From Escherichia coli (GTDB taxonomy: Bacteria; Pseudomonadota; Gammaproteobacteria; Enterobacterales; Enterobacteriaceae): 64,000 bases of DNA. Location: the NCBI RefSeq assembly GCF_041248615.1, contig NZ_CP158426.1, one strand, 5' to 3'. The notes under the pieces were generated by a model. The model ran no database searches, was not told the DNA's origin, and saw only the letters and a program-made list of their open reading frames with translations. Positions 11,993-56,407 of the stretch are shown here, one piece after another. Each line of letters starts with the position of its first letter. The stretch's first letter is position 1. The position numbers and the translations under genes are program-made.

Positions 11993-12000
11993 ATTATTCC

Positions 12001-13374: not shown

Positions 13375-13377
13375 AAC

Positions 13378-16300: not shown

Positions 16301-16485
16301 ACGCTGTTCTCCAGCGTTTCGGCAGAAGCACCAGTATAAGTGGCTGAAATTTTAATGGTCGGCGGTGCAACGTCAGGATATTGCGCGACGGGTAATGTGC
16401 GAATAGCCAGAATCCCCGCCAACATAATCAAAATGGCGATAACCCAGGCAAAGACCGGGCGGCGAACAAAAAAGCGCGAAAACAT
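13378..16485 (-). CDS. RND multidrug efflux pump, inner-membrane permease (AcrB/MexB-like HAE1)
   Basis: 1035-aa ORF; N-terminus MFSRFFVRRPVFAWVIAILIMLAG is the hallmark AcrB-family start; 12 TM helices and two large periplasmic loops. Confidence 0.9.
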   Translation of the reverse strand: MFSRFFVRRPVFAWVIAILIMLAGILAIRTLPVAQYPDVAPPTIKISATYTGASAETLENSVTQVIEQQLTGLDNLLYFSSTSSSDGSVSINVTFEQGTDPDTAQVQVQNKIQQAESRLPSEVQQTGVTVEKSQSNFLLIAAVYDTTDKASSSDIADWLVSNVQDPLARVEGVGSLQVFGAEYAMRIWLDPAKLASYSLMPSDVQSAIEAQNVQVTAGKIGALPSPNTQQLTATVRAQSRLQTVDQFKNIIVKSQSDGAVVRIKDVARVEMGSEDYTAIGKLNGHPSAGVAVMLSPGANALNTATLVKDKIAEFQRNMPQGYDIAYPKDSTEFIKISVEDVIQTLFEAIVLVVCVMYLFLQNLRATLIPALAVPVVLLGTFGVLALFGYSINTLTLFAMVLAIGLLVDDAIVVVENVERIMRDEGLPAREATEKSMGEISGALVAIALVLSAVFLPMAFFGGSTGVIYRQFSITIISAMLLSVVVALTLTPALCGSVLQHVPPHKKGFFGAFNRFYRRTEDKYQRGVIYVLRRAARTMGLYVVLGGGMALMMWKLPGSFLPTEDQGEIMVQYTLPAGATAARTAEVNRQIVDWFLINEKANTDVIFTVDGFSFSGSGQNTGMAFVSLKNWSQRKGAENTAQAIALRATKELGTIRDATVFAMTPPAVDGLGQSNGFTFELLANGGTDRETLLQMRNQLIEKANQSPELHSVRANDLPQMPQLQVDIDSNKAVSLGLSLNDVTDTLSSAWGGTYVNDFIDRGRVKKVYIQGDSEFRSAPSDLGKWFVRGSDNAMTPFSAFATTRWLYGPERLVRYNGSAAYEIQGENATGFSSGDAMTKMEELANSLPAGTTWAWSGLSLQEKLASGQALSLYAVSILVVFLCLAALYESWSVPFSVILVIPLGLLGAALAAWMRDLNNDVYFQVALLTTIGLSSKNAILIVEFAEAAVAEGYSLSRAALRAAQTRLRPIIMTSLAFIAGVMPLAIATGAGANSRIAIGTGIIGGTLTATLLAIFFVPLFFVLVKRLFAGKPRRQE

Positions 16486-17606
16486 CAGGCGTTGCCTCCA
16501 TTAGCCTGAACTTCAACAGCCTTGACGGTCTGCCCTGAAGTGACTTTGGCAGAACCTTCAACAATCAGTCGGTCGCCGTTGTGCAGGCCGTTCAGCACCA
16601 GCCATTTATCACCATACGTTTCTCCCGTTTCGAGCGTTCGCTGCTCTACTTTATTGTCTTTATTCACCACCAGCGCAGTTGCATTGCCTTTAGCATCGCG
16701 CGTGACGCCCTGTTGCGGCGCGAGAATAGCGTCTTCCATCACGCCTTCATCGACACGAGCGCGAACAAACATTCCCGGTAATAACTGCTGTTGTGGATTG
16801 GGGAAAATCGCCCGTAATGTCACCGAACCGGTAGACTCATCTACAGCGACTTCGGTGAGTTCCAGACGCCCTTTTTCGCTGTAGGTTGTGCCATCTTCCA
16901 GAATAAGTGAGACGCTCATGGTGTCACTGTTGGTCGCCAGTGACTGTTTACGCAGACGTAATAAATCGACACTGGAGCGAGTGAGGTCGACATACATTGT
17001 ATCCAGACCACGAATAGTCGTTAACGCTGTATCTTGCGACGCGGTCACCAGTGCGCCAGGGGTTACCGACGAAATGCCAATGCGCCCTGAAATCGGTGCG
17101 GTTACCGTGGTCCAGTCAAGATTAATGCGCGCAGTTTCCAGCGCGGCTTTTTTCGCCTCTACACTGGCTTTATCTTGTGCACAGGTAGACTGAGCATCAT
17201 CAGCATCCTGTTGTGAAACACCGTTCTCTTTCACCAGTCGGGCATAACGCTGCGCTTTCTGGCAATCGGCTTTTACCAGTGCCTGTGCTTGTTGTAATGC
17301 TGCCCGAGCTTCATTCCATGCAGCCTGATAACTGGCCGCATCAATCTGGTAGAGAGGCTGTCCAGCCTTGACCAGATCACCTTCCTTAAATAAGCGTTTC
17401 TGGATAATTCCCCCAACCTGCGGACGTACTTCAGCACTGAGCGCAGCACTGGTGCGTCCGGTTAATTCACTGACTACCGAAACAGGTTGAGATTTGAGCG
17501 TAACAACGCCGACTTCTGTTTCTGACGGGGATGAATTGTTACTTTGCGTATTATCACAACCCGATAAGAGCAGCATTGCCACTACAGATGTTGCTATATA
17601 CTTCAT
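16485..17606 (-). CDS. RND efflux membrane fusion protein (AcrA/MexA-like periplasmic adaptor)
   Basis: ORF with lipoprotein signal MKYIATSVVAMLLLSGC; start chosen at the ATG preceded by GGAG (ORF track extends to 17639); 1-nt overlap with the RND gene. Confidence 0.8.
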   Translation of the reverse strand: MKYIATSVVAMLLLSGCDNTQSNNSSPSETEVGVVTLKSQPVSVVSELTGRTSAALSAEVRPQVGGIIQKRLFKEGDLVKAGQPLYQIDAASYQAAWNEARAALQQAQALVKADCQKAQRYARLVKENGVSQQDADDAQSTCAQDKASVEAKKAALETARINLDWTTVTAPISGRIGISSVTPGALVTASQDTALTTIRGLDTMYVDLTRSSVDLLRLRKQSLATNSDTMSVSLILEDGTTYSEKGRLELTEVAVDESTGSVTLRAIFPNPQQQLLPGMFVRARVDEGVMEDAILAPQQGVTRDAKGNATALVVNKDNKVEQRTLETGETYGDKWLVLNGLHNGDRLIVEGSAKVTSGQTVKAVEVQANGGNA

Positions 17607-17657
17607 TATTTTCTCCAGGGTGAGAAATACCCTCCTCATTGAAATTAATGAGGATAT

Positions 17658-17736
17658 GTCAGGGATATTCAGTTATAACGAACCCGCATCGCGAAATGAA
17701 TTTCGCAATGAAATAAGGGGGATTAATATCCCCCGC
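17658..17736. promoter_or_regulatory. palindrome-rich region between the tetR-like gene and the efflux operon (candidate operator plus terminator hairpin)
   Basis: inverted repeats cctcatt-N6-aatgagg and gcgaaat-ga-atttcgc, followed by the hairpin gggggattaatatccccc. Confidence 0.4.
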
Positions 17737-17754
17737 TATTGGTTAATTCTGTTC

Positions 17755-18321
17755 TTATTTATTTATCAACATACTAACAATATCCTGATATATTTCCTGC
17801 AGATGTTGTGGATCGCTTTTTTGCGGTGTTAAACGACGATAAACCGTACCTTCCATCATGGTAGCAAACACTTCAACGCAGCAACGAATGTGCTCGTCGC
17901 TAAGATGGGGATGCATTCTTTTCATATGTGCACAACCGTTAGCGAACATTCTGGCGTCAGCTTCTTCAAGCATTGCCATAACCCGCGGGTTGCGTGTGGC
18001 TTCTGCAGCCACTTCCAGCATCAGCGCGTCGTCGTCCTCATTTAAGGATTTACGCAAGGCAAGGACTTCCGGGAAGTGATCGGTACGCGCGTCAATGTCC
18101 ATTTGGGCAATACGAAAGTCGATGATACGGCGAACCATCTCTTCAATAATGGCGTCTTTGTTGGCGAAGTAACGATATATCTGACCCACGCTAAGCTGAG
18201 CTTCGCTGGCAATTTGCGACATACTGGCGGCATGAAACCCGCAGCGACGAAAACACCGACGGGCGGCGTTAATGATTTCATCCTGACGCTGTTTGTGGCG
18301 TATCTCCAGCTTGCTGGTCAT
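17755..18321 (-). CDS. TetR/AcrR-family transcriptional regulator
   Basis: TetR-type HTH (AARRCFRRCGFHAASMSQIASEAQLSVGQIYRYFANKD) near the N-terminus when started at MTSKLEIRH (AGGAGA RBS); ORF track extends to 18420. Confidence 0.75.
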   Translation of the reverse strand: MTSKLEIRHKQRQDEIINAARRCFRRCGFHAASMSQIASEAQLSVGQIYRYFANKDAIIEEMVRRIIDFRIAQMDIDARTDHFPEVLALRKSLNEDDDALMLEVAAEATRNPRVMAMLEEADARMFANGCAHMKRMHPHLSDEHIRCCVEVFATMMEGTVYRRLTPQKSDPQHLQEIYQDIVSMLINK

Positions 18322-34981: not shown

Positions 34982-35257
34982 GTGGCTTCTGTTTCTATCA
35001 GCTGTCCCTCCTGTTCAGCTACTGACGGGGTGGTGCGTAACGGCAAAAGCACCGCCGGACATCAGCGCTATCTCTGCTCTCACTGCCGTAAAACATGGCA
35101 ACTGCAGTTCACTTACACCGCTTCTCAACCCGGTACGCACCAGAAAATCATTGATATGGCCATGAATGGCGTTGGATGCCGGGCAACCGCCCGCATTATG
35201 GGCGTTGGCCTCAACACGATTTTCCGCCATTTAAAAAACTCAGGCCGCAGTCGGTAA
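34982..35257 (+). CDS. insA: IS1 InsA (transposition inhibitor / N-terminal part of the transposase)
   Basis: 91-aa ORF with zinc-finger CPSC...CSHC; matches IS1 InsA. Confidence 0.9.
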
Positions 35258-35679
35258 CCTCGCGCATACAGCCGGGCAGTGACGTCATCGTCTGCGCGGA
35301 AATGGACGAACAGTGGGGATACGTCGGGGCTAAATCGCGCCAGCGCTGGCTGTTTTACGCGTATGACAGGCTCCGGAAGACGGTTGTTGCGCACGTATTC
35401 GGTGAACGCACTATGGCGACGCTGGGGCGTCTTATGAGCCTGCTGTCACCCTTTGACGTGGTGATATGGATGACGGATGGCTGGCCGCTGTATGAATCCC
35501 GCCTGAAGGGAAAGCTGCACGTAATCAGCAAGCGATATACGCAGCGAATTGAGCGGCATAACCTGAATCTGAGGCAGCACCTGGCACGGCTGGGACGGAA
35601 GTCGCTGTCGTTCTCAAAATCGGTGGAGCTGCATGACAAAGTCATCGGGCATTATCTGAACATAAAACACTATCAATAA
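35176..35679 (+). CDS. insB: IS1 InsB frame (expressed as the InsAB' transposase by -1 frameshift at the A6C motif near 35233)
   Basis: 167-aa ORF matching IS1 InsB; overlaps insA in the -1 frame; slippery sequence TTTAAAAAAC present. Confidence 0.85.
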
Positions 35680-40227: not shown

Positions 40228-40905
40228 AAATGCGCCTGTAAGGCTCTGTTACCAGCCGCGCCCTAACAGGCGCATACGATCTGACATTTGCATTCAACTT
40301 CGTTACTTACGGCCCGTAAACGGGCTGCCCGGATAGGGAATCGATAACTGCTCCCCCATTTTATCCTCTTCAAGCTGGTGCTTTATGTAGTCCTGTATCT
40401 TCGCCGTGTTCTTACCCACCGTATCGACATAGTACCCTCGGCACCAGAACTCCCTGTTTCTGTATTTGAATTTCAAATCCCCAAACTGCTCGTAAAGCAT
40501 CAGACTGCTTTTCCCTTTCAGATATCCCATAAAGCCGGATACGCTCATTTTGGGTGGGATTTCCACAAGCATATGGATATGATCTGCGCAGCACTCTGCT
40601 TCCAGAATCCGTACGCTTTTCCACTCACACAGCTTTCTCAAAATACTGCCTATCGCCCTACGCTTCTCTCCGTAAAACGCCAGTCTTCGGTATTTCGGCG
40701 CAAAAACTATGTGATATTTACAGTTCCAGCGGGTGTGCGCTAAGCTCTTTTCGTCCCCCATTGGGACCCCCTTTTGATTTCTTGTTTGACACTTGCAGTT
40801 GCCAGACCGCAAGGTGTTTTAACAAATCAAAAGGGGTTTTAATAACTGGCTCAAAGCTGAAAGCTTTCCGGAACCCCCAGCCTAGCTGGGGGTTTTCTGT
40901 GCACA
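40228..40905 (-). mobile_element. IS200-type insertion sequence (IS200/IS605 family); boundaries approximate
   Basis: contains a Y1 transposase gene matching IS200 TnpA, plus the characteristic 5' structures: an end-proximal hairpin (40873..40893) and a long stem-loop (about 40767..40836) that occludes the tnpA RBS; no TSD, as expected for this family. Confidence 0.6.
40303..40761 (-). CDS. tnpA: IS200 transposase TnpA (HUH/Y1 family)
   Basis: 152-aa ORF from MGDEKSLAHTRWNCKYHIVFAPKYRR with the HxH motif (ADHIHML) and catalytic Tyr region; track ORF has a 17-aa extension. Confidence 0.9.
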   Translation of the reverse strand: MGDEKSLAHTRWNCKYHIVFAPKYRRLAFYGEKRRAIGSILRKLCEWKSVRILEAECCADHIHMLVEIPPKMSVSGFMGYLKGKSSLMLYEQFGDLKFKYRNREFWCRGYYVDTVGKNTAKIQDYIKHQLEEDKMGEQLSIPYPGSPFTGRK

Positions 40906-43605: not shown

Positions 43606-43914
43606 TCAAGCGGCAATAGCGAAATTCAGAATACGTGTAATCTCATTCAAATGTCCCGGATATGCTTCATGATTCTCAGCGTCAACATCTTCAATAAATA
43701 ATATCAGTTCAGTAATTAACGCATTAGCATCGTCATAATTTATCCCGGCTAACTCTGGCGAAGTTTCAGTACCATAGTTAATCGTCAGGTTGTTCATAAC
43801 TGTGAGGATATGGATAAAATATTTATGACAAACATTACATGTGGTTTTATTACCCAAAGTATTATACAGCATATCAAGTAATGCCAGTATTCTACGGTTT
43901 TGCACATCGTTCAT
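43606..43914 (-). CDS. hypothetical small acidic protein (102 aa), second gene of the AT-rich accessory cassette
   Basis: intact ORF; strong SD TAGGAGGC 6-7 nt upstream of the ATG; start lies 10 nt after the upstream lipoprotein stop; no signal peptide; no family recognised. Confidence 0.6.
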   Translation of the reverse strand: MNDVQNRRILALLDMLYNTLGNKTTCNVCHKYFIHILTVMNNLTINYGTETSPELAGINYDDANALITELILFIEDVDAENHEAYPGHLNEITRILNFAIAA

Positions 43915-43924
43915 AAAAAGCCTC

Positions 43925-44926
43925 CTATAACATTATTCCGCTGGCAATAAGTAATTTTGCCAGCCCCTCAGACGCCTTTAACCCACTAATGACCTGTGCG
44001 CGTAATATTTCATTTAATCTTTTTTGTTCAGCTGCCGTGCGTGTTTTATTAACGTATAAGCTTTTTAGATAATCACCCTTATCTATAAAGGCATTTAAAG
44101 CCTCAATCGCAGGCATGGCAGGTGCCGATGCCTGTAGTCTGGTTTCATTCACATTGATTACTGAACTTAGAAACTCCTTCCTGTTTTTCAGAGTGTTAAA
44201 CTCTGTATTCTTAGAGTTTTTAGATGCTGTATTATAATAAAACATATTATCATGCACATTCGCAAAGGTATAATTTTCAATCTTATTGCTTTTTGTATAA
44301 ATATCATTGCGCAAAACCGCCATGTTCTTTATAAGTCTTACCCAGTTTTCATCTGCCGTTTTGCCTATTTTTCCAGAATTGACTTTAATTATATATAACT
44401 CATTGAAATAATTTACCAAATCTTTAACCGCTGCTGCAGATTGAACTAAATCTTTGCTATGTGAAACACCAAGTAGTGTTTGTGCGTTGTTTGCGTGATC
44501 CAGAGCCTGTTTAAGTAATGCCACTTGCTGACTTTCCGTAGTTGCCATATCCTTTGTCAGAAGTTCCACATAAGCGCTCATGCTATTAATGACTTCCATT
44601 GAAGCCAGTAATTTTTCTTTCTCGAAAGGGACTAATTGTACTTGTTTTGTATTTGGCCCTGAACGCTGGCATAATTTTCCGCCATTCCCATCACCGCCTA
44701 TATCAATGGTATAATCAGGTCGCAGAGCACAATCCGGATTAGTCGCGTAGAAATTAACAAGGAAGTTTTCACGAGAAGCATAGTATTGTTTAAAGAAACT
44801 TGCATTCGCCGCTACTGCTTTGTTACCCGCAGTAATAACAGTTTCAGCTTGTTCGTTTTTCAATGCTTCAGTTGCACAACCTGAAAGCATTAACAGCGAT
44901 AGAAATATTCCACTATATCTAATCAT
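43925..44926 (-). CDS. hypothetical lipoprotein (333 aa), first gene of the AT-rich accessory cassette
   Basis: intact ORF with strong SD AAGAGGTGGG; type II signal peptide with lipobox LSGC; Ala at +2 predicts outer-membrane sorting; N/K/S-rich composition; no family recognised. Confidence 0.6.
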   Translation of the reverse strand: MIRYSGIFLSLLMLSGCATEALKNEQAETVITAGNKAVAANASFFKQYYASRENFLVNFYATNPDCALRPDYTIDIGGDGNGGKLCQRSGPNTKQVQLVPFEKEKLLASMEVINSMSAYVELLTKDMATTESQQVALLKQALDHANNAQTLLGVSHSKDLVQSAAAVKDLVNYFNELYIIKVNSGKIGKTADENWVRLIKNMAVLRNDIYTKSNKIENYTFANVHDNMFYYNTASKNSKNTEFNTLKNRKEFLSSVINVNETRLQASAPAMPAIEALNAFIDKGDYLKSLYVNKTRTAAEQKRLNEILRAQVISGLKASEGLAKLLIASGIML

Positions 44927-45051
44927 AACCCACCTCTTGACGTTGAGTTTATCTCAGATAATTAAATAGTAATGTGGCTATTTCCGGGTATTATTCATAA
45001 GCAAGTATGAAATTAAATTAAAATACTGCGACTATTTATCATGCTTCAAAT

Positions 45052-45080
45052 GAAGAAAAGGCCCCGCAGGGCCTTTATTT
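45052..45080. terminator. rluB terminator hairpin (bidirectional)
   Basis: ggccc-cgca-gggcc stem flanked by A-run and T-run. Confidence 0.55.
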
Positions 45081-45095
45081 TATACTTATCTTAAA

Positions 45096-45971
45096 TTAAC
45101 CGTTATTATTACGTCCGCCAGAACGGCGACCACCGCTCACCTGGCTATGACGTTTCACCGCACGACGAATCTGATTCGCCTTCATGCGACGACGGTCTTT
45201 TTCTACAGCGACTTTAGAGCTGGTTTCTGGCGGCAGCTCCACCAGTTCGCGCAGGTAGTTAGTCTGGGCGAGGTCCAGCTCCGTCCAGCCACCGCGTGGC
45301 AGACCTTTTGGCAGTGGGATATCACCGTAACGAACACGGATCAGGCGGCTTACCTGCACACCAACCGCTTCCCACAGACGACGAACTTCACGGTTACGGC
45401 CTTCGGTCAGAGTTACGTTGTACCACTGGTTGATCCCTTCGCCGCCGCTGAACTTGATGGTTTTAAAGGCTGCCGGACCATCTTCCAGCTGCACACCACG
45501 GCTTAAATCACGCAGTTTCGCGTCGTCAACCTGACCAAATACACGCACGGCATATTCACGTTCAACTTCACGGCTTGGGTGCATTAAACGGTTTGCCAGT
45601 TCACCATCGGTGGTGAACAGCAGCAGACCACAGGTATTAACGTCCAGGCGACCCACGGCAATCCAGCGTGCGCCACGCAGTTTTGGCAGACGGTCAAACA
45701 CCGTTGGACGTCCTTCCGGATCGTTACGGGTACACAACTCACCTTCCGGTTTGTAATAGGCCAGAACGCGACAAATTTGTTCAGCGGACTCACGTACCGA
45801 AATCAGGTGACCATCGATACGGATTTTCAATCCAGGGGTAATTTCAACACGATCGCCGAGTTTAGCAATTTTGCCATCAACACTCACACGACCGGCTTCA
45901 ATAATAGATTCGATTTCACGGCGAGAGCCGTGGCCGGCACGCGCCAGCACTTTCTGTAGCTTTTCGCTCAT
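45096..45971 (-). CDS. rluB: 23S rRNA pseudouridine(2605) synthase RluB
   Basis: 291-aa ORF matching RluB (S4 domain plus pseudouridine synthase core; Arg/Gly-rich C-terminus). Confidence 0.9.
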
Positions 45972-46181
45972 AGAGCTTCCTTTTGGTGTCGCCTTCCCAG
46001 GCGTCTGATATGCTTTTGTGCAACAGTGAGTCAGAACTTACATCTGACTCACTGATAGTAAAGTCTGTTTGAACTCTTCAGGCCTTAAGTAAACGACTCG
46101 ACGTTTATCGACCTGGCTTTGAGGCGCAACATACTACACTATCTTTATGGTTAAAGCTTGTTTCGATTAACGTCGATTTGG

Positions 46182-48077
46182 TTACCAACCACCACCGCCT
46201 CCGCCACCCGCACCGCCGCCAGCACCACCACCGGAATAGCTTCGCCCCAACAAACTGGTATAGGCCCCGCAACTCAGGTGCGTCTGCAATGAGAATAAAA
46301 CGCCACTACGGGCAATTTCCGGGGCGCTAACAGCCGCTGTGAGTGATGGGGTGATACGTTCTGCCCATTCTCTGCCAAGGTTTGCCGAGACCGCCCAACC
46401 TAACAATGCGTAATCCAGTTTCCGTGTTTCCCCTTTCCGCCGCCGCCCACTGTGTGTTGCCGCCTCTTTACGCGCAAGATAGTTAACGATAGCTTCACCG
46501 TGGGCATAACGTTGCTGCCCAGTTTGGGTAAACTTTGGCAGAAAAATATACCCTATGCCAGTGAGATAACCGGTCAGAAAAACAGCGCTAAAATAACCCG
46601 CTGGCATATACCAGTAAAAGAATACATCTCCGACATTGATATAGAGAGAATAAAAGGCCACGCCTGAACAAATCAGCGGTAAAAACAAAGTGATGATTAC
46701 ACAATTAACGCAAGGCTTGTCATCATCGCGGGCAAACAAAAGCTCAAGGGAACAAAATAAAAAAGGAAGAAGCCAGCAGATCATAATAAACATATCGCCC
46801 ACCAGACTCATTCCTGCCCAGCCTACGGGACTCAGGTTACCGTAGAGAATGACCGCTAATATCGCCATTCCCCCCCATTGCAAAAACGCATCAGGTCGGT
46901 AAAACGAAGACTTTTTACGCGGCAGATAAAATTTCTGCATCCGTAAAAATGCACTGCGTAAGACTCTGTTGCGTCTCCCCGTAAGAACGACCTTATCGCC
47001 TTTACGAAATAACGCTTCCAGTAATAACTTCTCTGCGGGCAGTAATACCGCATTATTTCTGGTCGCGCCTTCATTAACACGAATCAGGATTTGCTGGTTC
47101 TTGTCATACTGATCTTTCAGATGAATTTTGCCTTTCACAATCAGATTTACGATATCGGCACAAAAACCTTTATCGTCGTAAACCAGTTTCGCATCGAGAC
47201 GTAACATGCCGGGTGTGTAATCTGGCGGAATGACATCGGTTTCAATCACATCTACCGGCGTAAATTGCGGCCTGCGCTTCCAGAGATATAACCATCCACA
47301 CGCCAGGAACAGACACGGAAACCAAATTAACAACGATGACGTAGAGGGTAAAAGAAGATGGCTGAAAATATTCGTCGTTTGTGGTGCCGGGGCATTACCA
47401 AGTAAAGCGTGAGGCCAGCGGTAGAGGACCGTGAAGTCTTCACGATAAAACGGATCGCGGGATTCAATTCTTCCGTCCTCAAGGATGCGGCCATTTCGAT
47501 ATGTGTCGCCCTCTTCTCCAGTAAAGAGATCAATTTCGCTAAATGAATTACCCGCAATATCAGGCAACTGGAGAGAAAATCGGGTCTTATAGATTTCAAA
47601 CGGCCACTTGTTACCGGTCACGTTCCAGATTAACAGATCAGAATCTCCCTCACGCAGGAAAGCATTTTTAACCTGATAATGAATTTGATAATGATAGTCA
47701 CCTTGAGGCAAGAAACGTTGTTTATCGCCCACGACAATACTCATTAAACCGATATGCCAGTCAAGATGCCAGGGTTCAGGAACACCATCACGGGTGACGC
47801 CAACAATATGATAGTTCAGCAGTGCAGCGTCACCATTAGGCTGCATCCATAGTCGTGGTAAATCACGATAAAATCCGTGCTTAATCTGCTGATTTCGCGC
47901 CTGAAAATGAATGTTCTCTTTGATGTCGAGCACCCCATCCAGTTGCAGGGTGGCTTCAACATCAAAGAGCGAGATCCCTTCTTCATAAGAAGGGATCTCC
48001 GTGTTTTCTGCATAACTTAGAGATGATACAAACAGCCCTGCTATCAACAGCAAAATGCAGCGAAACTTCCCTGCCAT
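46182..48077 (-). CDS. yciQ: DUF2207-family membrane protein YciQ
   Basis: 631-aa ORF with signal peptide and multiple TM segments; C-terminal Gly/Ala tract; matches YciQ. Confidence 0.85.
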   Translation of the reverse strand: MAGKFRCILLLIAGLFVSSLSYAENTEIPSYEEGISLFDVEATLQLDGVLDIKENIHFQARNQQIKHGFYRDLPRLWMQPNGDAALLNYHIVGVTRDGVPEPWHLDWHIGLMSIVVGDKQRFLPQGDYHYQIHYQVKNAFLREGDSDLLIWNVTGNKWPFEIYKTRFSLQLPDIAGNSFSEIDLFTGEEGDTYRNGRILEDGRIESRDPFYREDFTVLYRWPHALLGNAPAPQTTNIFSHLLLPSTSSLLIWFPCLFLACGWLYLWKRRPQFTPVDVIETDVIPPDYTPGMLRLDAKLVYDDKGFCADIVNLIVKGKIHLKDQYDKNQQILIRVNEGATRNNAVLLPAEKLLLEALFRKGDKVVLTGRRNRVLRSAFLRMQKFYLPRKKSSFYRPDAFLQWGGMAILAVILYGNLSPVGWAGMSLVGDMFIMICWLLPFLFCSLELLFARDDDKPCVNCVIITLFLPLICSGVAFYSLYINVGDVFFYWYMPAGYFSAVFLTGYLTGIGYIFLPKFTQTGQQRYAHGEAIVNYLARKEAATHSGRRRKGETRKLDYALLGWAVSANLGREWAERITPSLTAAVSAPEIARSGVLFSLQTHLSCGAYTSLLGRSYSGGGAGGGAGGGGGGGW

Positions 48078-48104
48078 AGTCTTCCATCCGTGGAACGCAA
48101 TTTG

Positions 48105-48725
48105 TTATAAGAAAGGCTTCACATCACCTACGCCTTCACGCACCACGACCGGCGTATCATCAGTAAGATCAATAACCGTTGTTGGTTTCTGCCCGAGATA
48201 GCCGCCGTGAATAATCAAATCCACCTGTTTTTCCAGACGGTCTTTAATTTCTTCCGGATCGGATTCGGTAAATTCGCTACCTGGCAGCATCAGTGATGTG
48301 GAAAGCATCGGTTCGCCCAATGCTTCAAGCAGCGCCTGCGCAATCGGGTTAGAAGGCACACGCATACCGATGGTTTTGCGTTTTTCCTGCAACAGACGGC
48401 GTGGCACTTCCTTCGTCCCCTTCAGGATGAAGGTATAGTTGCCCGGCGTGTTGTTTTTCATTAAACGAAACGCAACGTTATCGACAAATGAATAGGTCGA
48501 GAGTTCAGAAAGATCGCGACACATCAGGGTAAAGTTGTGACCGTCCGGCAGCTGGCGAATACGACAAATACGCTCCATCGCGTTTTTATCTTCAATTTTA
48601 CAGCCGAGCGCATAGCCGGAATCAGTTGGATAAACAATCACCCCGCCTTTACGCACGATCTCCACCGCCTGGTTGATCAGACGTTGCTGCGGGTTATCAG
48701 GATGAATATAAAAAAACTGGCTCAT
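48105..48725 (-). CDS. yciO: L-threonylcarbamoyladenylate synthase-like protein YciO (YrdC/Sua5 fold)
   Basis: ORF matches YciO from MSQFFYIHPDNPQQR (206 aa). Confidence 0.85.
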   Translation of the reverse strand: MSQFFYIHPDNPQQRLINQAVEIVRKGGVIVYPTDSGYALGCKIEDKNAMERICRIRQLPDGHNFTLMCRDLSELSTYSFVDNVAFRLMKNNTPGNYTFILKGTKEVPRRLLQEKRKTIGMRVPSNPIAQALLEALGEPMLSTSLMLPGSEFTESDPEEIKDRLEKQVDLIIHGGYLGQKPTTVIDLTDDTPVVVREGVGDVKPFL

Positions 48726-49603
48726 AATTCCCTCTCTGTGGTGTTCTGCGGCTGTTCCCATAGCTGCCAGACGCCTTCAACGCCTGCGGGCAGCCAGAGT
48801 TTACGACCCAGTTCGATCCACGGGCATGGCTGATGAAAATCAGATCCTTGTGATGCCCATAAATGATGCTGACGCGCAAGTGTCGCCAGCTGGGTGCGTT
48901 CATTGGGCGATTGCTGGCACTGCGCGACTTCCATCGCGTCGCCGTGGTGTTCGGCAAAATGCGCAACCAATCTTTTCAGCCATTTAGCACTAAGATTGTA
49001 CCGCCCAGGATGAGCTAGCACCGCCTTACCGCCAGAATGATGAATGACATCAATAGCTTGTTCTATTGTACACCACTGTGGCGGAACGTATCCGGTTTTC
49101 CCGCGCGCCAGATACTTTTTAAAGACATCCGCCATTGAACTGGCTTTGCCGCACTCCACAAGGAAACGCGCAAAATGACCGCGCGTCACCGCACCGCCCT
49201 GCGCCAGTCTTTGCGCGCCTTCCAGTGCCCCAGGTATTTGCGCTTTTTCAAGTCTTTCGGCAATCAGCTGCGCCCGCTGATTGCGCCGTTCTGTCTGCTG
49301 CGCGAGGAACTCACGCATTAGCGGATGAGTAATATCAATATTCAGCCCGACAATATGAATTTCATGATTTTCCCAGACTGTGGAAATTTCCACGCCGGGT
49401 ATAAGATTCAGCGCCAGTCCCGAACGTGAAATTTCCTCTCTTGCTGGCGCGATTGCAGCTGTGGTGTCATGGTCGGTGATCGCCAGGGTGCCGACGCGCA
49501 TCTCGACTGCACGGTGCACCAATGCTTCTGGCGTCAGGCAGCCATCGGAAGCTGTGGTATGGCTGTGCAGGTCGTAAATCACTGCGTAATTCGTGTCGCT
49601 CAA
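48722..49603 (-). CDS. trpH: PHP-domain 3',5'-nucleoside bisphosphate phosphatase / RNase AM (TrpH, YciV)
   Basis: 293-aa ORF with PHP motif HSHTTASDG; divergent from the trp operon. Confidence 0.9.
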   Translation of the reverse strand: MSDTNYAVIYDLHSHTTASDGCLTPEALVHRAVEMRVGTLAITDHDTTAAIAPAREEISRSGLALNLIPGVEISTVWENHEIHIVGLNIDITHPLMREFLAQQTERRNQRAQLIAERLEKAQIPGALEGAQRLAQGGAVTRGHFARFLVECGKASSMADVFKKYLARGKTGYVPPQWCTIEQAIDVIHHSGGKAVLAHPGRYNLSAKWLKRLVAHFAEHHGDAMEVAQCQQSPNERTQLATLARQHHLWASQGSDFHQPCPWIELGRKLWLPAGVEGVWQLWEQPQNTTEREL

Positions 49604-49672
49604 GGCGCACTCCCGTTCTGGATAATGTTTTTTGCGCCGACATCATAACGGTTCTGGCAAATATTCTGAAAT

Positions 49673-49715
49673 GAGCTGTTGACAATTAATCATTGAACTA
49701 GTTAACTAGTACGCA
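49673..49715 (+). promoter_or_regulatory. trp promoter with TrpR operator
   Basis: TTGACA (-35) at 49678..49683, TTAACT (-10) at 49701..49706, operator palindrome GAACTAGTTAACTAGTAC between them. Confidence 0.9.
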
Positions 49716-49740
49716 AGTTCACGTAAAAAGGGTATCGACA

Positions 49741-49785
49741 ATGAAAGCAATTTTCGTACTGAAAGGTTGGTGGCGCACTTCCTGA
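49741..49785 (+). CDS. trpL: trp operon leader peptide
   Basis: atgaaagcaattttcgtactgaaaggttggtggcgcacttcctga encodes [14 protein letters not shown] with tandem Trp codons. Confidence 0.95.
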
Positions 49786-49827
49786 AACGGGCAGTGTATT
49801 CACCATGCGTAAAGCAATCAGATACCC

Positions 49828-49857
49828 AGCCCGCCTAATGAGCGGGCTTTTTTTTGA
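49828..49857 (+). terminator. trp attenuator (3:4 terminator hairpin)
   Basis: agcccgcc-taatga-gcgggct followed by a run of 8 T. Confidence 0.95.
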
Positions 49858-49876
49858 ACAAAATTAGAGAATAACA

Positions 49877-51439
49877 ATGCAAACACAAAAACCGACTCTT
49901 GAACTGCTAACCTGCGAAGGCGCTTATCGCGACAACCCGACTGCGCTTTTTCACCAGTTGTGTGGGAATCGTCCAGCAACGCTGCTGCTGGAATCCGCAG
50001 ATATCGACAGCAAAGATGATTTAAAAAGCCTGCTGCTGGTAGACAGTGCGCTGCGCATTACAGCATTAGGTGACACGGTCACAATTCAGGCACTTTCCGG
50101 CAATGGTGAAGCCCTGCTGGCACTACTGGATAACGCCCTGCCTGCGGGTGTGGAAAATGAACAATCACCAAACTGCCGTGTGCTGCGCTTCCCCCCTGTC
50201 AGTCCACTGCTGGATGAAGACGCCCGCTTATGCTCCCTTTCGGTTTTTGACGCTTTCCGCTTATTACAGAATCTGTTGCATGTACCGAAGGAAGAACGAG
50301 AAGCAATGTTCTTCGGCGGCCTGTTCTCTTATGACCTTGTGGCGGGGTTTGAAGATTTACCGCAACTGTCAGCGGAAAATAACTGCCCTGATTTCTGTTT
50401 TTATCTCGCTGAAACGCTGATGGTGATTGACCATCAGAAAAAAAGCACCCGCATTCAGGCCAGCCTGTTTGCTCCGAATGAAGAAGAAAAACAACGTCTC
50501 ACTGCTCGCCTGAACGATCTTCGCCAGCAACTGACCGAAACCGCGCCACCGCTGCCGGTGGTTTCCGTGCCGCATATGCGTTGTGAATGTAACCAGAGCG
50601 ATGAAGAGTTCGGTGGCGTAGTGCGTTTGTTGCAAAAAGCGATTCGCGCTGGAGAAATTTTCCAGGTGGTGCCATCTCGCCGTTTCTCTCTGCCCTGCCC
50701 GTCACCGCTGGCGGCCTATTACGTGCTGAAAAAGAGTAATCCCAGCCCGTACATGTTTTTTATGCAGGATAATGATTTCACCCTGTTTGGCGCGTCGCCG
50801 GAAAGTTCGCTCAAGTATGACGCCACCAGCCGCCAGATTGAGATCTACCCGATTGCCGGAACACGCCCGCGCGGTCGTCGCGCCGATGGCTCGCTGGACA
50901 GAGACCTCGACAGCCGCATCGAACTGGAAATGCGTACCGATCATAAAGAGCTTTCTGAACATCTGATGCTGGTGGATCTCGCCCGTAATGATCTGGCACG
51001 CATTTGCACCCCCGGTAGTCGCTACGTCGCCGATCTCACCAAAGTTGACCGTTATTCTTATGTGATGCACCTCGTCTCCCGCGTGGTCGGTGAGCTGCGC
51101 CACGATCTCGACGCCCTGCACGCTTACCGCGCCTGTATGAATATGGGGACATTAAGCGGTGCGCCGAAAGTGCGCGCCATGCAGTTAATTGCCGGGGCGG
51201 AAGGTCGTCGCCGCGGCAGCTACGGCGGCGCAGTAGGTTATTTCACCGCGCATGGCGATCTCGACACCTGCATTGTGATCCGCTCGGCGCTGGTGGAAAA
51301 CGGTATCGCCACCGTGCAAGCCGGTGCTGGCGTGGTACTTGATTCTGTTCCGCAGTCGGAAGCCGACGAAACCCGTAATAAAGCCCGCGCTGTACTGCGC
51401 GCTATTGCCACCGCGCATCATGCACAGGAGACGTTCTGA
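49877..51439 (+). CDS. trpE: anthranilate synthase component I
   Basis: 520-aa ORF matching TrpE. Confidence 0.95.
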
Positions 51440-53034
51440 TGGCTGACATTCTGCTGCTCGATAATATCGACTCTTTTACTTACAACCTGGCAGATCAGTT
51501 GCGCAGCAATGGTCATAACGTGGTGATTTACCGCAACCATATTCCGGCGCAGACCTTAATTGAACGCCTGGCGACAATGAGCAATCCGGTGCTGATGCTT
51601 TCTCCTGGCCCCGGTGTGCCAAGCGAAGCCGGTTGTATGCCAGAACTCCTCACCCGCCTGCGCGGCAAGCTGCCAATTATTGGCATTTGCCTCGGTCATC
51701 AGGCGATTGTCGAAGCTTATGGGGGGTATGTCGGTCAGGCGGGCGAAATTCTTCACGGTAAAGCGTCGAGTATTGAACATGACGGTCAGGCGATGTTTGC
51801 CGGATTAACAAACCCATTGCCAGTGGCGCGTTATCACTCGCTGGTTGGCAGTAACATTCCGGCCGGTTTAACCATCAACGCCCATTTTAATGGCATGGTG
51901 ATGGCGGTGCGTCACGATGCAGATCGCGTTTGTGGATTCCAGTTCCATCCGGAATCCATTCTTACTACCCAGGGTGCTCGCCTGCTGGAACAAACGCTGG
52001 CCTGGGCGCAGCAGAAACTGGAACCGACCAACACGCTGCAACCGATTCTGGAAAAACTGTATCAGGCGCAGACCCTTAGCCAGCAGGAAAGTCACCAGCT
52101 GTTTTCAGCGGTGGTACGTGGCGAACTGAAACCGGAACAACTGGCGGCGGCGCTGGTGAGCATGAAAATTCGCGGCGAGCACCCGAACGAGATCGCCGGA
52201 GCAGCAACCGCGCTACTGGAAAATGCCGCGCCGTTCCCGCGCCCGGATTATCTGTTTGCTGATATCGTCGGTACTGGCGGTGACGGCAGTAACAGCATCA
52301 ATATTTCTACCGCCAGTGCGTTTGTCGCCGCGGCCTGTGGGCTGAAAGTGGCGAAACACGGCAACCGTAGCGTCTCCAGTAAATCCGGCTCGTCGGATCT
52401 GCTGGCGGCGTTCGGTATTAATCTTGATATGAACGCCGATAAATCGCGCCAGGCGCTGGATGAGTTAGGCGTCTGTTTCCTCTTTGCGCCGAAATATCAC
52501 ACCGGATTCCGCCACGCGATGCCGGTTCGCCAACAACTGAAAACCCGCACCCTGTTCAATGTGCTGGGGCCATTGATTAACCCGGCGCATCCGCCGCTGG
52601 CGCTAATTGGTGTTTATAGTCCGGAACTGGTGCTGCCGATTGCCGAAACCTTGCGCGTGCTGGGGTATCAACGCGCTGCGGTAGTGCACAGCGGCGGGAT
52701 GGATGAAGTTTCATTACACGCGCCGACAATCGTTGCCGAACTGCATGACGGTGAAATTAAGAGCTATCAGCTAACTGCAGAAGATTTTGGCCTGACACCC
52801 TACCACCAGGAGCAACTGGCAGGCGGAACACCGGAAGAAAACCGTGACATTTTAACACGCTTGTTACAAGGTAAAGGCGACGCCGCCCATGAAGCAGCCG
52901 TCGCGGCGAACGTCGCCATGTTAATGCGCCTGCATGGCCATGAAGATCTGCAAGCCAATGCGCAAACCGTTCTTGAGGTACTGCGCAGTGGTTCCGCTTA
53001 CGACAGAGTCACCGCACTGGCGGCACGAGGGTAA
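51439..53034 (+). CDS. trpD: bifunctional anthranilate synthase component II / anthranilate phosphoribosyltransferase
   Basis: 531-aa ORF matching the TrpG-D fusion; start overlaps the trpE stop (TGATG). Confidence 0.95.
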
Positions 53035-54396
53035 ATGATGCAAACCGTTTTAGCGAAAATCGTCGCAGACAAGGCGATTTGGGTAGAAACCCGCAAACAG
53101 CAGCAACCGCTGGCCAGTTTTCAGAATGAGGTTCAGCCGAGCACGCGACATTTTTATGATGCACTTCAGGGCGCACGCACGGCGTTTATTCTGGAGTGTA
53201 AAAAAGCGTCGCCGTCAAAAGGCGTGATCCGTGATGATTTCGATCCGGCACGCATTGCCGCCATTTATAAACATTACGCTTCGGCAATTTCGGTGCTGAC
53301 TGATGAGAAATATTTTCAGGGGAGCTTTGATTTCCTCCCCATCGTCAGCCAAATCGCCCCGCAGCCGATTTTATGTAAAGACTTCATTATCGATCCTTAC
53401 CAGATCTATCTGGCGCGCTATTACCAGGCCGATGCCTGCTTATTAATGCTTTCAGTACTGGATGACGAACAATATCGCCAGCTTGCTGCCGTCGCCCACA
53501 GTCTGGAGATGGGTGTGCTGACCGAAGTCAGTAATGAAGAGGAACTGGAGCGTGCCATTGCATTGGGGGCAAAGGTCGTTGGCATCAACAACCGCGATCT
53601 GCGTGATTTGTCGATTGATCTCAACCGTACCCGCGAGCTTGCGCCGAAACTGGGGCACAACGTGACGGTAATCAGCGAATCCGGCATCAATACTTACGCT
53701 CAGGTGCGCGAGTTAAGCCACTTCGCTAACGGTTTTCTGATTGGTTCGGCGTTGATGGCCCATGACGATTTGAACGCCGCCGTGCGCCGGGTGTTGCTTG
53801 GTGAGAATAAAGTGTGTGGCCTGACGCGTGGGCAAGATGCTAAAGCAGCTTATGACGCGGGCGCGATTTACGGTGGGTTGATTTTTGTTACAACGTCACC
53901 GCGTTGCGTCAGCGTTGAACAGGCGCAGGAAGTGATGGCTGCGGCACCGTTGCAATACGTTGGCGTATTCCGCAATCACGATATTGCCGATGTGGTGGAC
54001 AAAGCTAACGCGTTATCGCTGGCAGCAGTGCAACTGCATGGTAATGAAGATCAGCAATATATCGACGCACTGCGTGACGTGCTGCCCGCAAACGTTGCCA
54101 TCTGGAAAGCATTGAGCGTCGGTGAAACTCTTCCCGCACGCGATTTTCAGCACGTCGATAAATATGTTTTCGACAACGGCCAGGGTGGTAGCGGGCAACG
54201 TTTCGACTGGTCACTGTTAAACGGTCAATCGCTTGGCAACGTTCTGCTGGCGGGTGGCTTAGGCGCAGATAACTGCGTGGAAGCGGCACAAACCGGCTGC
54301 GCCGGACTTGATTTTAATTCTGCTGTAGAGTCACAACCGGGTATAAAAGACGCACATCTTTTGGCCTCGGTTTTCCAGACGCTGCGCGCATATTAA
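53035..54396 (+). CDS. trpC: bifunctional indole-3-glycerol-phosphate synthase / phosphoribosylanthranilate isomerase
   Basis: 453-aa ORF matching the TrpC-F fusion. Confidence 0.95.
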
Positions 54397-54407
54397 GGAA
54401 AGGAACA

Positions 54408-55601
54408 ATGACAACATTACTTAACCCCTATTTTGGTGAGTTTGGCGGCATGTACGTGCCACAAATCCTGATGCCTGCTCTGCGCCAGCTGGAAGAAGCT
54501 TTTGTCAGCGCGCAAAAAGATCCTGAATTTCAGGCCCAGTTCAACGACCTGTTGAAAAACTATGCCGGGCGTCCAACCGCACTGACCAAATGCCAGAACA
54601 TTACGGCTGGGACGAACACTACGCTGTATCTTAAGCGCGAAGATTTACTGCACGGCGGCGCGCATAAAACTAACCAGGTGCTCGGTCAGGCTTTACTGGC
54701 GAAGCGGATGGGTAAAACCGAAATCATCGCCGAAACCGGTGCCGGTCAGCATGGCGTGGCGTCGGCCCTTGCCAGTGCCCTGCTCGGCCTGAAATGCCGT
54801 ATTTATATGGGTGCCAAAGACGTTGAACGCCAGTCGCCAAACGTTTTTCGTATGCGCTTAATGGGTGCGGAAGTGATCCCGGTACATAGCGGTTCCGCGA
54901 CGCTGAAAGATGCCTGTAACGAGGCGCTACGCGACTGGTCCGGCAGTTATGAAACCGCGCACTATATGCTGGGCACCGCAGCTGGCCCGCATCCTTACCC
55001 GACCATTGTGCGTGAGTTTCAGCGAATGATTGGCGAAGAAACGAAAGCGCAGATTCTGGAAAGAGAAGGTCGCCTGCCGGATGCGGTTATCGCTTGTGTT
55101 GGCGGCGGTTCAAATGCCATCGGCATGTTTGCTGATTTCATCAACGAAACCGACGTCGGCCTGATTGGTGTCGAACCAGGCGGTCACGGTATCGAAACTG
55201 GCGAGCACGGCGCACCGTTAAAACACGGTCGCGTGGGCATCTATTTCGGTATGAAAGCGCCGATGATGCAAACCGAAGACGGGCAGATTGAAGAATCTTA
55301 CTCCATCTCCGCCGGACTGGATTTCCCGTCTGTCGGCCCACAACACGCGTATCTTAACAGCACTGGACGCGCTGATTACGTGTCAATTACCGATGATGAA
55401 GCACTGGAAGCCTTCAAAACGCTGTGCCTGCACGAAGGGATCATCCCGGCGCTGGAATCCTCCCACGCCCTGGCCCATGCGCTGAAAATGATGCGCGAAA
55501 ACCCGGAAAAAGAGCAGCTACTGGTGGTTAACCTTTCCGGTCGCGGCGATAAAGACATCTTCACCGTTCACGATATTTTGAAAGCACGAGGGGAAATCTG
55601 A
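54408..55601 (+). CDS. trpB: tryptophan synthase beta subunit
   Basis: 397-aa ORF matching TrpB. Confidence 0.95.
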
Positions 55602-56407
55602 TGCAACGCTACGAATCTCTGTTTGCCCAGTTGAAGGAGCGCAAAGAAGGCGCATTCGTTCCTTTCGTCACCCTCGGTGATCCGGGCATTGAGCAGTCGC
55701 TGAAAATTATCGACACGCTAATTGAAGCCGGTGCTGACGCGCTGGAGTTAGGTATCCCCTTCTCCGACCCACTGGCGGATGGCCCGACGATTCAAAACGC
55801 CACACTGCGTGCCTTTGCGGCAGGTGTGACCCCGGCACAGTGCTTTGAGATGCTGGCACTGATTCGCCAGAAGCACCCGACCATTCCCATCGGCCTTTTG
55901 ATGTATGCCAACCTGGTGTTTAACAAAGGCATTGATGAGTTTTATGCCCAGTGCGAGAAAGTCGGCGTCGATTCGGTGCTGGTTGCCGATGTGCCAGTGG
56001 AAGAGTCCGCTCCCTTCCGCCAGGCCGCGTTGCGTCATAATGTCGCACCTATCTTTATTTGCCCGCCGAATGCCGACGATGATTTGCTGCGCCAGATAGC
56101 CTCCTACGGTCGTGGATACACCTATTTATTGTCACGTGCGGGCGTGACCGGCGCAGAAAACCGCGCCGCGTTACCCCTCAATCATCTGGTCACGAAGCTG
56201 AAAGAGTACAATGCTGCGCCTCCATTGCAGGGCTTTGGTATTTCCGCCCCGGATCAGGTAAAAGCAGCGATTGATGCAGGAGCTGCGGGCGCGATTTCTG
56301 GTTCGGCCATTGTTAAAATCATCGAGCAACATATTAATGAGCCAGAGAAAATGCTGGCGGCACTGAAAGCTTTTGTACAACCGATGAAAGCGGCGACGCG
56401 CAGTTAA
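55601..56407 (+). CDS. trpA: tryptophan synthase alpha subunit
   Basis: 268-aa ORF matching TrpA; start overlaps the trpB stop. Confidence 0.95.

What the first reader, a model, noticed from the sequence alone, without database searches (positions are those of the whole stretch)
49678..49715. trp promoter/operator: possible single-base difference from the textbook sequence at the operator edge
The sequence here reads ...aattaatcatTgaactagttaactagtacgcaag..., whereas the K-12 trp promoter as I remember it reads ...aatcatCgaactag.... If my recollection is right, this is a C-to-T transition at the outer edge of the TrpR operator, between -35 and -10. It is likely neutral strain polymorphism but lies in a heavily studied regulatory site.
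Basis: partly seen in the sequence, partly recalled or inferred. Interest (0 to 1): 0.15.

Follow-up and report, generated by a model that had tools for sequence, protein, structure and literature searches.

The report
Common harmless SNP in trp operator
The window carries the textbook E. coli tryptophan-operon promoter/operator with one real C-to-T difference from K-12 at its outer edge, a natural variant found in about 5% of E. coli genomes and in a third of related species, so it is most likely ordinary and near-neutral.

Summary
The window is E. coli NRZ14408 (puuR to kch). In the 310 bp around the trp promoter, operator and leader, its only difference from K-12 MG1655 is T instead of C at window 49694. 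That is position -21, with +1 at 49715. It lies in the 17-bp spacer and is the outermost base of the 20-bp TrpR dyad.

It is not an error or a private mutation. Allele-specific searches of 5,426 complete E. coli genomes give C 5,100, T 266 (4.9%), A 8 and G 0. T occurs on at least five regulatory haplotypes with very different flanks.

Among 118 other species whose 18-bp operator core is identical, -21 is C in 77, T in 40 and A in 1. Three other Escherichia species have C, so T is derived. Two of K-12's own four examined TrpR operators (aroH, mtr) have T at the equivalent position.

The -35 and -10 hexamers, spacer length, operator core, leader and attenuator are unchanged. The strain's TrpR matches K-12's except for its last two residues.

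Verdict: an already-known element carrying a tolerated, probably near-neutral polymorphism. A small quantitative effect on repression cannot be excluded without an assay. Low interest.

The parts
49679..49684 (+). trp promoter -35 hexamer TTGACA (-36..-31)
   Evidence: Identical to MG1655. TTGAC is invariant in 117/118 species with the same operator core.
49685..49701 (+). 17-bp promoter spacer containing the variant
   Evidence: Read directly. The length is the same as in K-12.
49694..49694 (+). The variant: T at -21 (K-12 has C). Outermost left base of the 20-bp TrpR dyad, immediately 5' of the 18-bp core.
   Evidence: Alignment. E. coli census C 5100 / T 266 / A 8 / G 0. Cross-species C 77 / T 40 / A 1.
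49695..49712 (+). 18-bp TrpR operator core GAACTAGTTAACTAGTAC (-20..-3), overlapping the -10 hexamer
   Evidence: Identical to K-12. The exact 18-mer was found upstream of trp leaders in 119 other Enterobacterales/Vibrio genomes.
49702..49707 (+). trp promoter -10 hexamer TTAACT
   Evidence: Identical to K-12. It lies inside the operator core.
49715..49715 (+). Transcription start (+1) of the trp leader, by homology to K-12
   Evidence: The sequence from here (AAGTTCACGTAAAAAGGGTATCGACAATG) is identical to K-12. The +1 assignment comes from my knowledge of the K-12 leader RNA, in which the trpL AUG is at +27 (= 49741).
49741..49785 (+). trpL leader peptide gene ([14 protein letters not shown])
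   Evidence: RefSeq annotation of the identical record. Identical to K-12.
49762..49855 (+). Trp operon leader/attenuator RNA (Rfam RF00513)
   Evidence: 93.1 bits against a gathering score of 41. Terminator hairpin 49828-49848 plus a T-run.
49877..51439 (+). trpE, first structural gene controlled by this promoter
   Evidence: Annotation. Followed by trpD, trpCF, trpB and trpA.

Best explanation
This is the canonical E. coli trp promoter-operator. It is a sigma-70 promoter (TTGACA, 17 bp, TTAACT), and its -10 region is buried in the operator bound by tryptophan-loaded TrpR, which excludes RNA polymerase. The trpL attenuator follows. The window's strain carries a natural C-to-T transition at -21, the outermost base of the operator dyad and a spacer position. 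The change leaves every element known to matter intact: both hexamers, the spacing, the 18-bp core, the leader and the attenuator. It replaces one tolerated pyrimidine with the other, so it is most likely neutral or nearly so. Shown: the sequence difference, its population frequency, its spread across haplotypes, its frequency in other species, and the near-identity of TrpR. Inferred: that repression and promoter strength are essentially unchanged.
For: There is a single difference from MG1655 in 310 bp. T is present in 266/5,426 complete E. coli genomes, against C in 5,100, A in 8 and G in 0. T occurs on at least five regulatory haplotypes: alone; with +52 G>C; with +123 A>G; with -16 T>C and -2 G>A; and with -1 C>A and +52 G>C. 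The flanking trpE sequences of these carriers differ by 16-56 substitutions. In 118 species with an identical 18-bp core, -21 is C 77, T 40, A 1, while the mirror position -2 is G 100, A 18. The position therefore tolerates either pyrimidine. K-12's own operators have T at the equivalent flank in aroH and mtr, and C in trp and trpR. No new promoter-like site is created on the + strand. NRZ14408 TrpR is identical to K-12 TrpR over residues 1-106, which include the whole helix-turn-helix.
Against: No binding or expression measurement exists here. The restriction of -21 to pyrimidines (117/118 species; no G and only 8 A in E. coli) shows the position is under some constraint. C and T need not be exactly equivalent, and C is the clear majority in E. 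coli (94%) and in the other Escherichia species sampled. I found no open-access paper reporting the effect of a -21 substitution.
Confidence: 0.85

Rival explanations
1. The T allele is a weak regulatory tuning variant. Breaking the outermost C/G symmetry pair, or changing local DNA shape at the operator edge or in the spacer, slightly alters TrpR affinity, tandem TrpR occupancy or RNA polymerase open-complex formation. Basal or repressed trp expression then shifts modestly, and selection keeps the allele at about 5% in several lineages.
For: Position -21 is constrained to pyrimidines across species and in E. coli, so it is not a free position. TrpR recognition depends heavily on DNA shape and water-mediated contacts (review PMC4139847), so flanking bases could matter. 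The allele sits on at least two clearly different flanking backgrounds: K-12-like flanks in HS-type strains, and window/ST2747/DA33137-type flanks. This pattern is compatible with recurrence or spread by recombination.
Against: T is used by a third of species with an identical core, and by K-12's aroH and mtr operators. The left flank (-22 to -28) is poorly conserved across species, whereas +1 to +7 (AAGTTCA) is conserved. That argues against a conserved left-hand tandem TrpR site in which -21 would be central. Occurrence on many haplotypes is equally expected from the heavy recombination seen across this region.
Confidence: 0.12
2. It is an operator-constitutive (Oc-like) or promoter-down/up mutation that substantially deregulates the trp operon in this strain.
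For: It lies within the formally defined 20-bp dyad of the operator and within the promoter.
Against: It lies outside the 18-bp core and outside both hexamers, and the spacer length is unchanged. A deregulating allele would not be expected in 266 genomes from humans, pigs, birds, dogs and water, nor as the wild-type state in 40 other species. As I recall (not verified here), the classical Oc mutations map inside the core, in and around the CTAG motifs.
Confidence: 0.02
3. It is a sequencing or assembly error in this record.
For: None beyond its being a single base.
Against: The same allele is in 265 other complete genomes. An independent isolate (362, Madrid) has the same allele and an almost identical 12-kb haplotype.
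Confidence: 0.01

Closest known systems
E. coli K-12 trp promoter-operator (Ptrp/trpO) with trpL attenuator
   Same: The genomic position is the same (between rnm/trpH and trpL-trpEDCBA). The -35, -10, spacer length, 18-bp operator core, leader peptide, attenuator and terminator are identical, and 309 of 310 aligned bases match.
   Different: T instead of C at -21. The outermost pair of the 20-bp dyad (C-21/G-2) is no longer symmetric.
K-12 aroH and mtr TrpR operators
   Same: They have T immediately 5' of the 18-bp core (gaaT-GTACTAGAGAACTAGTGC-A; tttT-GTACTCGTGTACTGGTAC-A), as the window's trp operator does.
   Different: Their cores differ from the trp core at 3-4 positions, and their 3' flank is A rather than G. 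They regulate other genes. As I recall, they are repressed less strongly than trp.
Orthologous trp operators of other Enterobacterales and Vibrio with T at -21 (e.g. Citrobacter braakii L083, Enterobacter chuandaensis L067, Siccibacter colletis L033)
   Same: The 18-bp core is identical, it is preceded by T, TTGAC lies at the same distance, and a trp leader lies downstream.
   Different: The spacer and upstream sequences are otherwise divergent. The repressor-operator affinity of these orthologues was not examined.
Classical trp operator-constitutive mutations and the natural Shigella dysenteriae promoter-down variant (Yanofsky laboratory, 1978; recalled from memory, papers not held)
   Same: Single-base changes in the same roughly 40-bp regulatory segment.
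   Different: As I recall, those changes fall in the core operator or the hexamers and have strong phenotypes. The present change is outside both, and its distribution argues against a strong phenotype.

Membership tests
E. coli-type trp promoter-operator (Ptrp/trpO) | Located immediately upstream of trpL and trpEDCBA | tested here: met
   RefSeq annotation of the identical record places trpL at 49741-49785 and trpE at 49877-51439, followed by trpD, CF, B and A.
E. coli-type trp promoter-operator (Ptrp/trpO) | -35 TTGACA, 17-bp spacer, -10 TTAACT | tested here: met
   Identical to MG1655.
E. coli-type trp promoter-operator (Ptrp/trpO) | 18-bp TrpR core GAACTAGTTAACTAGTAC overlapping the -10 hexamer | tested here: met
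   Identical to MG1655. The same 18-mer is conserved in 119 other genomes.
E. coli-type trp promoter-operator (Ptrp/trpO) | Outer dyad pair C(-21)/G(-2), as in the K-12 sequence | tested here: not met
   The window has T(-21)/G(-2). This pair does not define the family: 30 of 118 species with the same core also have T/G.
E. coli-type trp promoter-operator (Ptrp/trpO) | Cognate TrpR repressor encoded in the same genome with an intact DNA-binding domain | tested here: met
   trpR of NZ_LT599825.1 (4515858-4516184) encodes a 108-aa protein identical to K-12 TrpR at residues 1-106. Only the last two residues differ, DH versus SD.
E. coli-type trp promoter-operator (Ptrp/trpO) | Tryptophan-dependent repression by TrpR in vivo, or TrpR binding in vitro | not testable with these tools
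   This needs a reporter assay or EMSA/footprinting.
Trp operon leader (Rfam RF00513) | Match to the covariance model above the gathering score | tested here: met
   93.1 bits against 41, at window 49762-49855.
Operator-constitutive (Oc) mutation of trpO | Base change within the TrpR-contacted core that lowers repressor binding | tested here: not met
   The variant lies one base outside the 18-bp core, and T is a frequent wild-type state there. Binding itself was not measured.
Promoter up/down mutation | Change in the -35 or -10 hexamer, or in spacer length | tested here: not met
   The hexamers and the 17-bp spacing are unchanged. No new promoter-like site appears on the + strand.

The most novel reading that the evidence does not exclude
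The -21T allele is not neutral. It arose or was transferred repeatedly onto unrelated trp haplotypes, and it persists at about 5% because it subtly retunes TrpR occupancy at the operator edge, or promoter strength through the spacer. Carriers would then have a slightly different tryptophan-biosynthesis set-point.
Probability: 0.08. Interest if true: 0.25.

Novelty: already known. Interest (0 to 1): 0.06.

Why it matters
It matters very little. The trp promoter-operator is one of the best-studied regulatory sites in biology, and this variant is a tolerated natural allele. One modest result is a clean statement of natural variation at the operator edge. Position -21 is a constrained pyrimidine: C or T in 117/118 species, and 5,366 of the 5,374 classified E. 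coli genomes. Its mirror position -2 is always a purine. The 18-bp core and the downstream AAGTTCA are near-invariant. If a reporter assay showed a measurable effect, the allele would be a convenient natural example of flank or shape tuning of TrpR binding, but nothing here suggests that.

Tried and rejected
(1) Sequencing error. Rejected because the allele is in 266 genomes, including an independent near-identical isolate.

(2) New promoter. C-to-T makes TTGAAC at 49693-49698, which is -35-like at 4 of 6. No usable -10 lies 16-18 bp downstream on inspection, and the consensus scan calls nothing new on the + strand.

(3) Compensatory change in TrpR. Rejected because TrpR is identical to K-12 through residue 106, and the trpR autoregulatory operator is also identical.

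(4) Single clonal origin. The nearest 12-kb relatives of the window haplotype (XJ6.1, JNEC-KY178, 2012C-4221, TUM14771) carry C. T also occurs on K-12-like flanks in HS-type strains. At least two backgrounds are therefore involved. The invariant block of about 400 bp around the site prevents separating recurrent mutation from short recombination tracts.

(5) Using +52C or +123G as markers of T haplotypes. These SNPs are more frequent (327 and 368 genomes) than -21T, so they are independent polymorphisms and not markers of it.

(6) Literature on -21. The 1976 and 1978 PNAS papers on the trp promoter are not held. Full-text searches found no paper on this position. Only general statements on TrpR shape and water readout were retrievable.

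(7) Left-hand tandem TrpR site centred near -20. Considered and judged unlikely because -22 to -28 is not conserved across species.

Full report
**Identity of the window.** A 12-kb query around the finding matches E. coli isolate NRZ14408 (NZ_LT599825.1) at 100%. The window corresponds to 2,915,672-2,979,671 of that record. It runs from puuR to kch, with rnm(trpH)-yciO-yciQ-rluB on the minus strand and trpL-trpEDCBA on the plus strand.

**Checking the observation.** The sequence reads gagctgTTGACAattaatcatTgaactagTTAACTagtacgcAagttcacg.
- Aligning window 49590-49900 with MG1655 gives one difference in about 310 bp: T in the window and C in K-12 at 49694.
- I take +1 as 49715, the first base of the K-12 leader AAGUUCACG. 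This puts the trpL AUG at 49741 = +27, matching what I know of the K-12 leader.
- On that numbering the variant is at -21. It lies in the 17-bp spacer between TTGACA (49679-49684) and TTAACT (49702-49707).
- It is the outermost left base of the 20-bp dyad C(-21)...G(-2), whose axis falls between 49703 and 49704.
- The leader is otherwise canonical. Rfam Trp_leader scores 93.1 bits at 49762-49855, and the attenuator terminator is at 49828-49848.

**How common it is.** I used 55-mers centred on the site. Megablast needs an exact 28-base word, so each query hits only genomes with the matching allele.

| Base at -21 | Genomes (of 5,426 complete E. coli) |
|---|---|
| C | 5,100 |
| T | 266 (4.9%) |
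| A | 8 |
| G | 0 |

The remaining 52 genomes were not classified. T carriers come from humans, pigs, poultry, dogs, wild birds and water, and include the commensal strain HS.

**Genetic backgrounds.** I fetched nine other T carriers and eight C carriers (MG1655 among them) and compared them with the window.
- T occurs alone in the window and in isolate 362.
- T occurs with +52 G>C (trpL Gly9Ala) in HS, 214-4 and 13P484A.
- T occurs with +123 A>G (attenuator hairpin loop) in DA33137, '405' and NY1601.
- T occurs with -16 T>C and -2 G>A in ST2747.
- T occurs with -1 C>A and +52 G>C in PEB20-37-A.
- The trpE genes of these carriers differ from one another by 16-56 substitutions in 1,563 bp. The 273-bp regulatory region never differs by more than 4.
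- The closest 12-kb relatives of the window's haplotype (XJ6.1, JNEC-KY178, 2012C-4221, TUM14771) carry C.
- HS-type carriers have K-12-like flanks, while the window, DA33137 and ST2747 types share other flank alleles.
- So at least two origins or transfers are needed. The region is a recombination mosaic, and a block of about 400 bp around the site is invariant. Recurrent mutation and short conversion tracts therefore cannot be told apart here.

**Comparison with other species.** One was a chance hit in a Maribacter genome and one was truncated.
- In the remaining 118 (Enterobacterales and Vibrio, with TTGAC at the right distance and a leader downstream), -21 is C in 77, T in 40 and A in 1.
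- The mirror position -2 is G in 100 and A in 18.
- E. albertii, E. whittamii and Escherichia sp. E1V33 have C, so C is ancestral in the genus and T is derived in E. coli.
- The position is constrained to a pyrimidine, and both pyrimidines are in regular use.
- The upstream spacer (-22 to -28) is variable, while +1 to +7 (AAGTTCA) is well conserved. This fits a conserved right-hand tandem TrpR half-site (AGTTC). It argues against a conserved left-hand tandem site in which -21 would be central. That last step is my inference, based on my knowledge of the tandem-binding model.

**K-12's own operators.** I read the aroH, trpR and mtr upstream regions of MG1655.

| Operator | 5' flank | 18-bp core | 3' flank |
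|---|---|---|---|
| trp | C | GAACTAGTTAACTAGTAC | G |
| trpR | C | GTACTCTTTAGCGAGTAC | A |
| aroH | T | GTACTAGAGAACTAGTGC | A |
| mtr | T | GTACTCGTGTACTGGTAC | A |

T at this position is therefore compatible with TrpR-regulated sites in the reference strain itself.

**The repressor.** trpR of NRZ14408 was located by walking from thrA. It encodes a protein identical to K-12 TrpR at residues 1-106, with only the C-terminal two residues different (DH versus SD). Its autoregulatory operator is identical to K-12's. There is no sign of a compensating change in the DNA-reading head.

**Mechanism.**
- Shown: the promoter hexamers, spacing, operator core, leader peptide, attenuator and terminator are all K-12-identical. 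The single change is a pyrimidine swap at a Y-constrained flank position.
- From established knowledge: holo-TrpR binds the dyad overlapping the -10 hexamer and excludes RNA polymerase. Recognition relies on DNA shape and water-mediated contacts within the core (PMC4139847). As I recall, the crystal complex used an 18-bp duplex that does not include this position.
- Inferred: -21T leaves repression and promoter strength essentially unchanged.
- A small quantitative effect is possible, and I give it about 0.12. A strong Oc-like or promoter phenotype is very unlikely given the allele's distribution.

**Novelty and score.** This is the textbook trp promoter-operator carrying a widespread natural allele. 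I classify it as already known, with interest 0.06. The most novel reading not excluded is weak, selected regulatory tuning (probability about 0.08), and even that would be of modest interest.

**A more promising variant.** ST2747-type strains combine -21T with a change inside the CTAG core (-16 T>C) and -2 G>A. -16C occurs in only 7 of 5,426 genomes. It is a better candidate for a natural operator-weakening variant than the one in this window.

Noticed in passing
L010:3020-3050 (E. coli ST2747, NZ_CP007392.1); equivalent to window 49694-49713: ST2747-type trp operator combines -21T with -16 T>C (CTAG becomes CCAG, inside the TrpR core) and -2 G>A. -16C is present in only 7 of 5,426 genomes. 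This is a better candidate for weakened repression than the window's variant.
   Followed up: partly
window 49766 (window itself canonical); L005:3075-3119 (E. coli HS): A +52 G>C polymorphism changes the leader peptide Gly9 to Ala, directly before the two regulatory Trp codons. It is found in 327 genomes, including HS, ATCC 8739 and an O157:H7 strain, and is not restricted to -21T carriers.
   Followed up: partly
window 49837 (window has A); L007, L009, L137: An A>G polymorphism in the loop of the attenuator terminator hairpin (+123) is present in 368 genomes.
   Followed up: partly
window 49694: The census at -21 shows strong avoidance of purines in E. coli (A in 8 genomes, G in none). This mirrors the pyrimidine-only pattern across 118 species, where the symmetric position -2 is always a purine.
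   Followed up: yes
L012:3020-3030 (E. coli UM146); equivalent to window 49691: UM146 keeps C at -21 but has C>T at -24 in the same spacer. 1,064 C-allele genomes differ from K-12 somewhere in the 55-mer, so other spacer SNPs exist. The -24 allele was not counted separately.
   Followed up: no
window 44000-56000: The trp region is a strong recombination mosaic. Strains differ by 16-68 substitutions in trpE alone, and blocks of near-identity alternate with blocks of 3-5% divergence. The 273-bp regulatory region, by contrast, varies at 4 sites or fewer.
   Followed up: partly
window 49877-51439 (trpE): The window's TrpE has His135 where all nine other compared strains have Asn. It has Asn31 where K-12, HS and UM146 have Asp. 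The same protein accession occurs in isolate 362.
   Followed up: no
window 49715-49722 and loci L013-L132: Downstream of the operator core, +1 to +7 (AAGTTCA) is conserved in 82-98% of 118 species, whereas the left flank (-22 to -28) is not. This fits a conserved right-hand tandem TrpR half-site (AGTTC) or a constraint on the initially transcribed sequence.
   Followed up: partly
L145:8859-9185 (trpR of NRZ14408, outside the window): TrpR differs from K-12 only in its last two residues (…LLKDH versus …LLKSD). The 3' end of trpR overlaps convergent yjjX by 7 bp in this annotation.
   Followed up: partly
window 49642-49670, minus strand: A promoter-like site (TTCAGA, 17 bp, TATGAT) faces rnm (trpH), back-to-back with the trp -35 region. 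It is a consensus match only.
   Followed up: no
window 10829-18321: A five-gene cluster lies between sapF and fabI: a TetR-family regulator, an RND adaptor, an RND permease, an outer-membrane factor and an MFS transporter. As I recall, it is not at this position in K-12; this was not checked.
   Followed up: no
window 34982-35679; 40303-40761; 43606-44927: An IS1B-family transposase lies between ymiA and cysB. An IS200/IS605 tnpA lies between yciN and sohB. Two hypothetical CDS lie between cobO and rluB.
   Followed up: no
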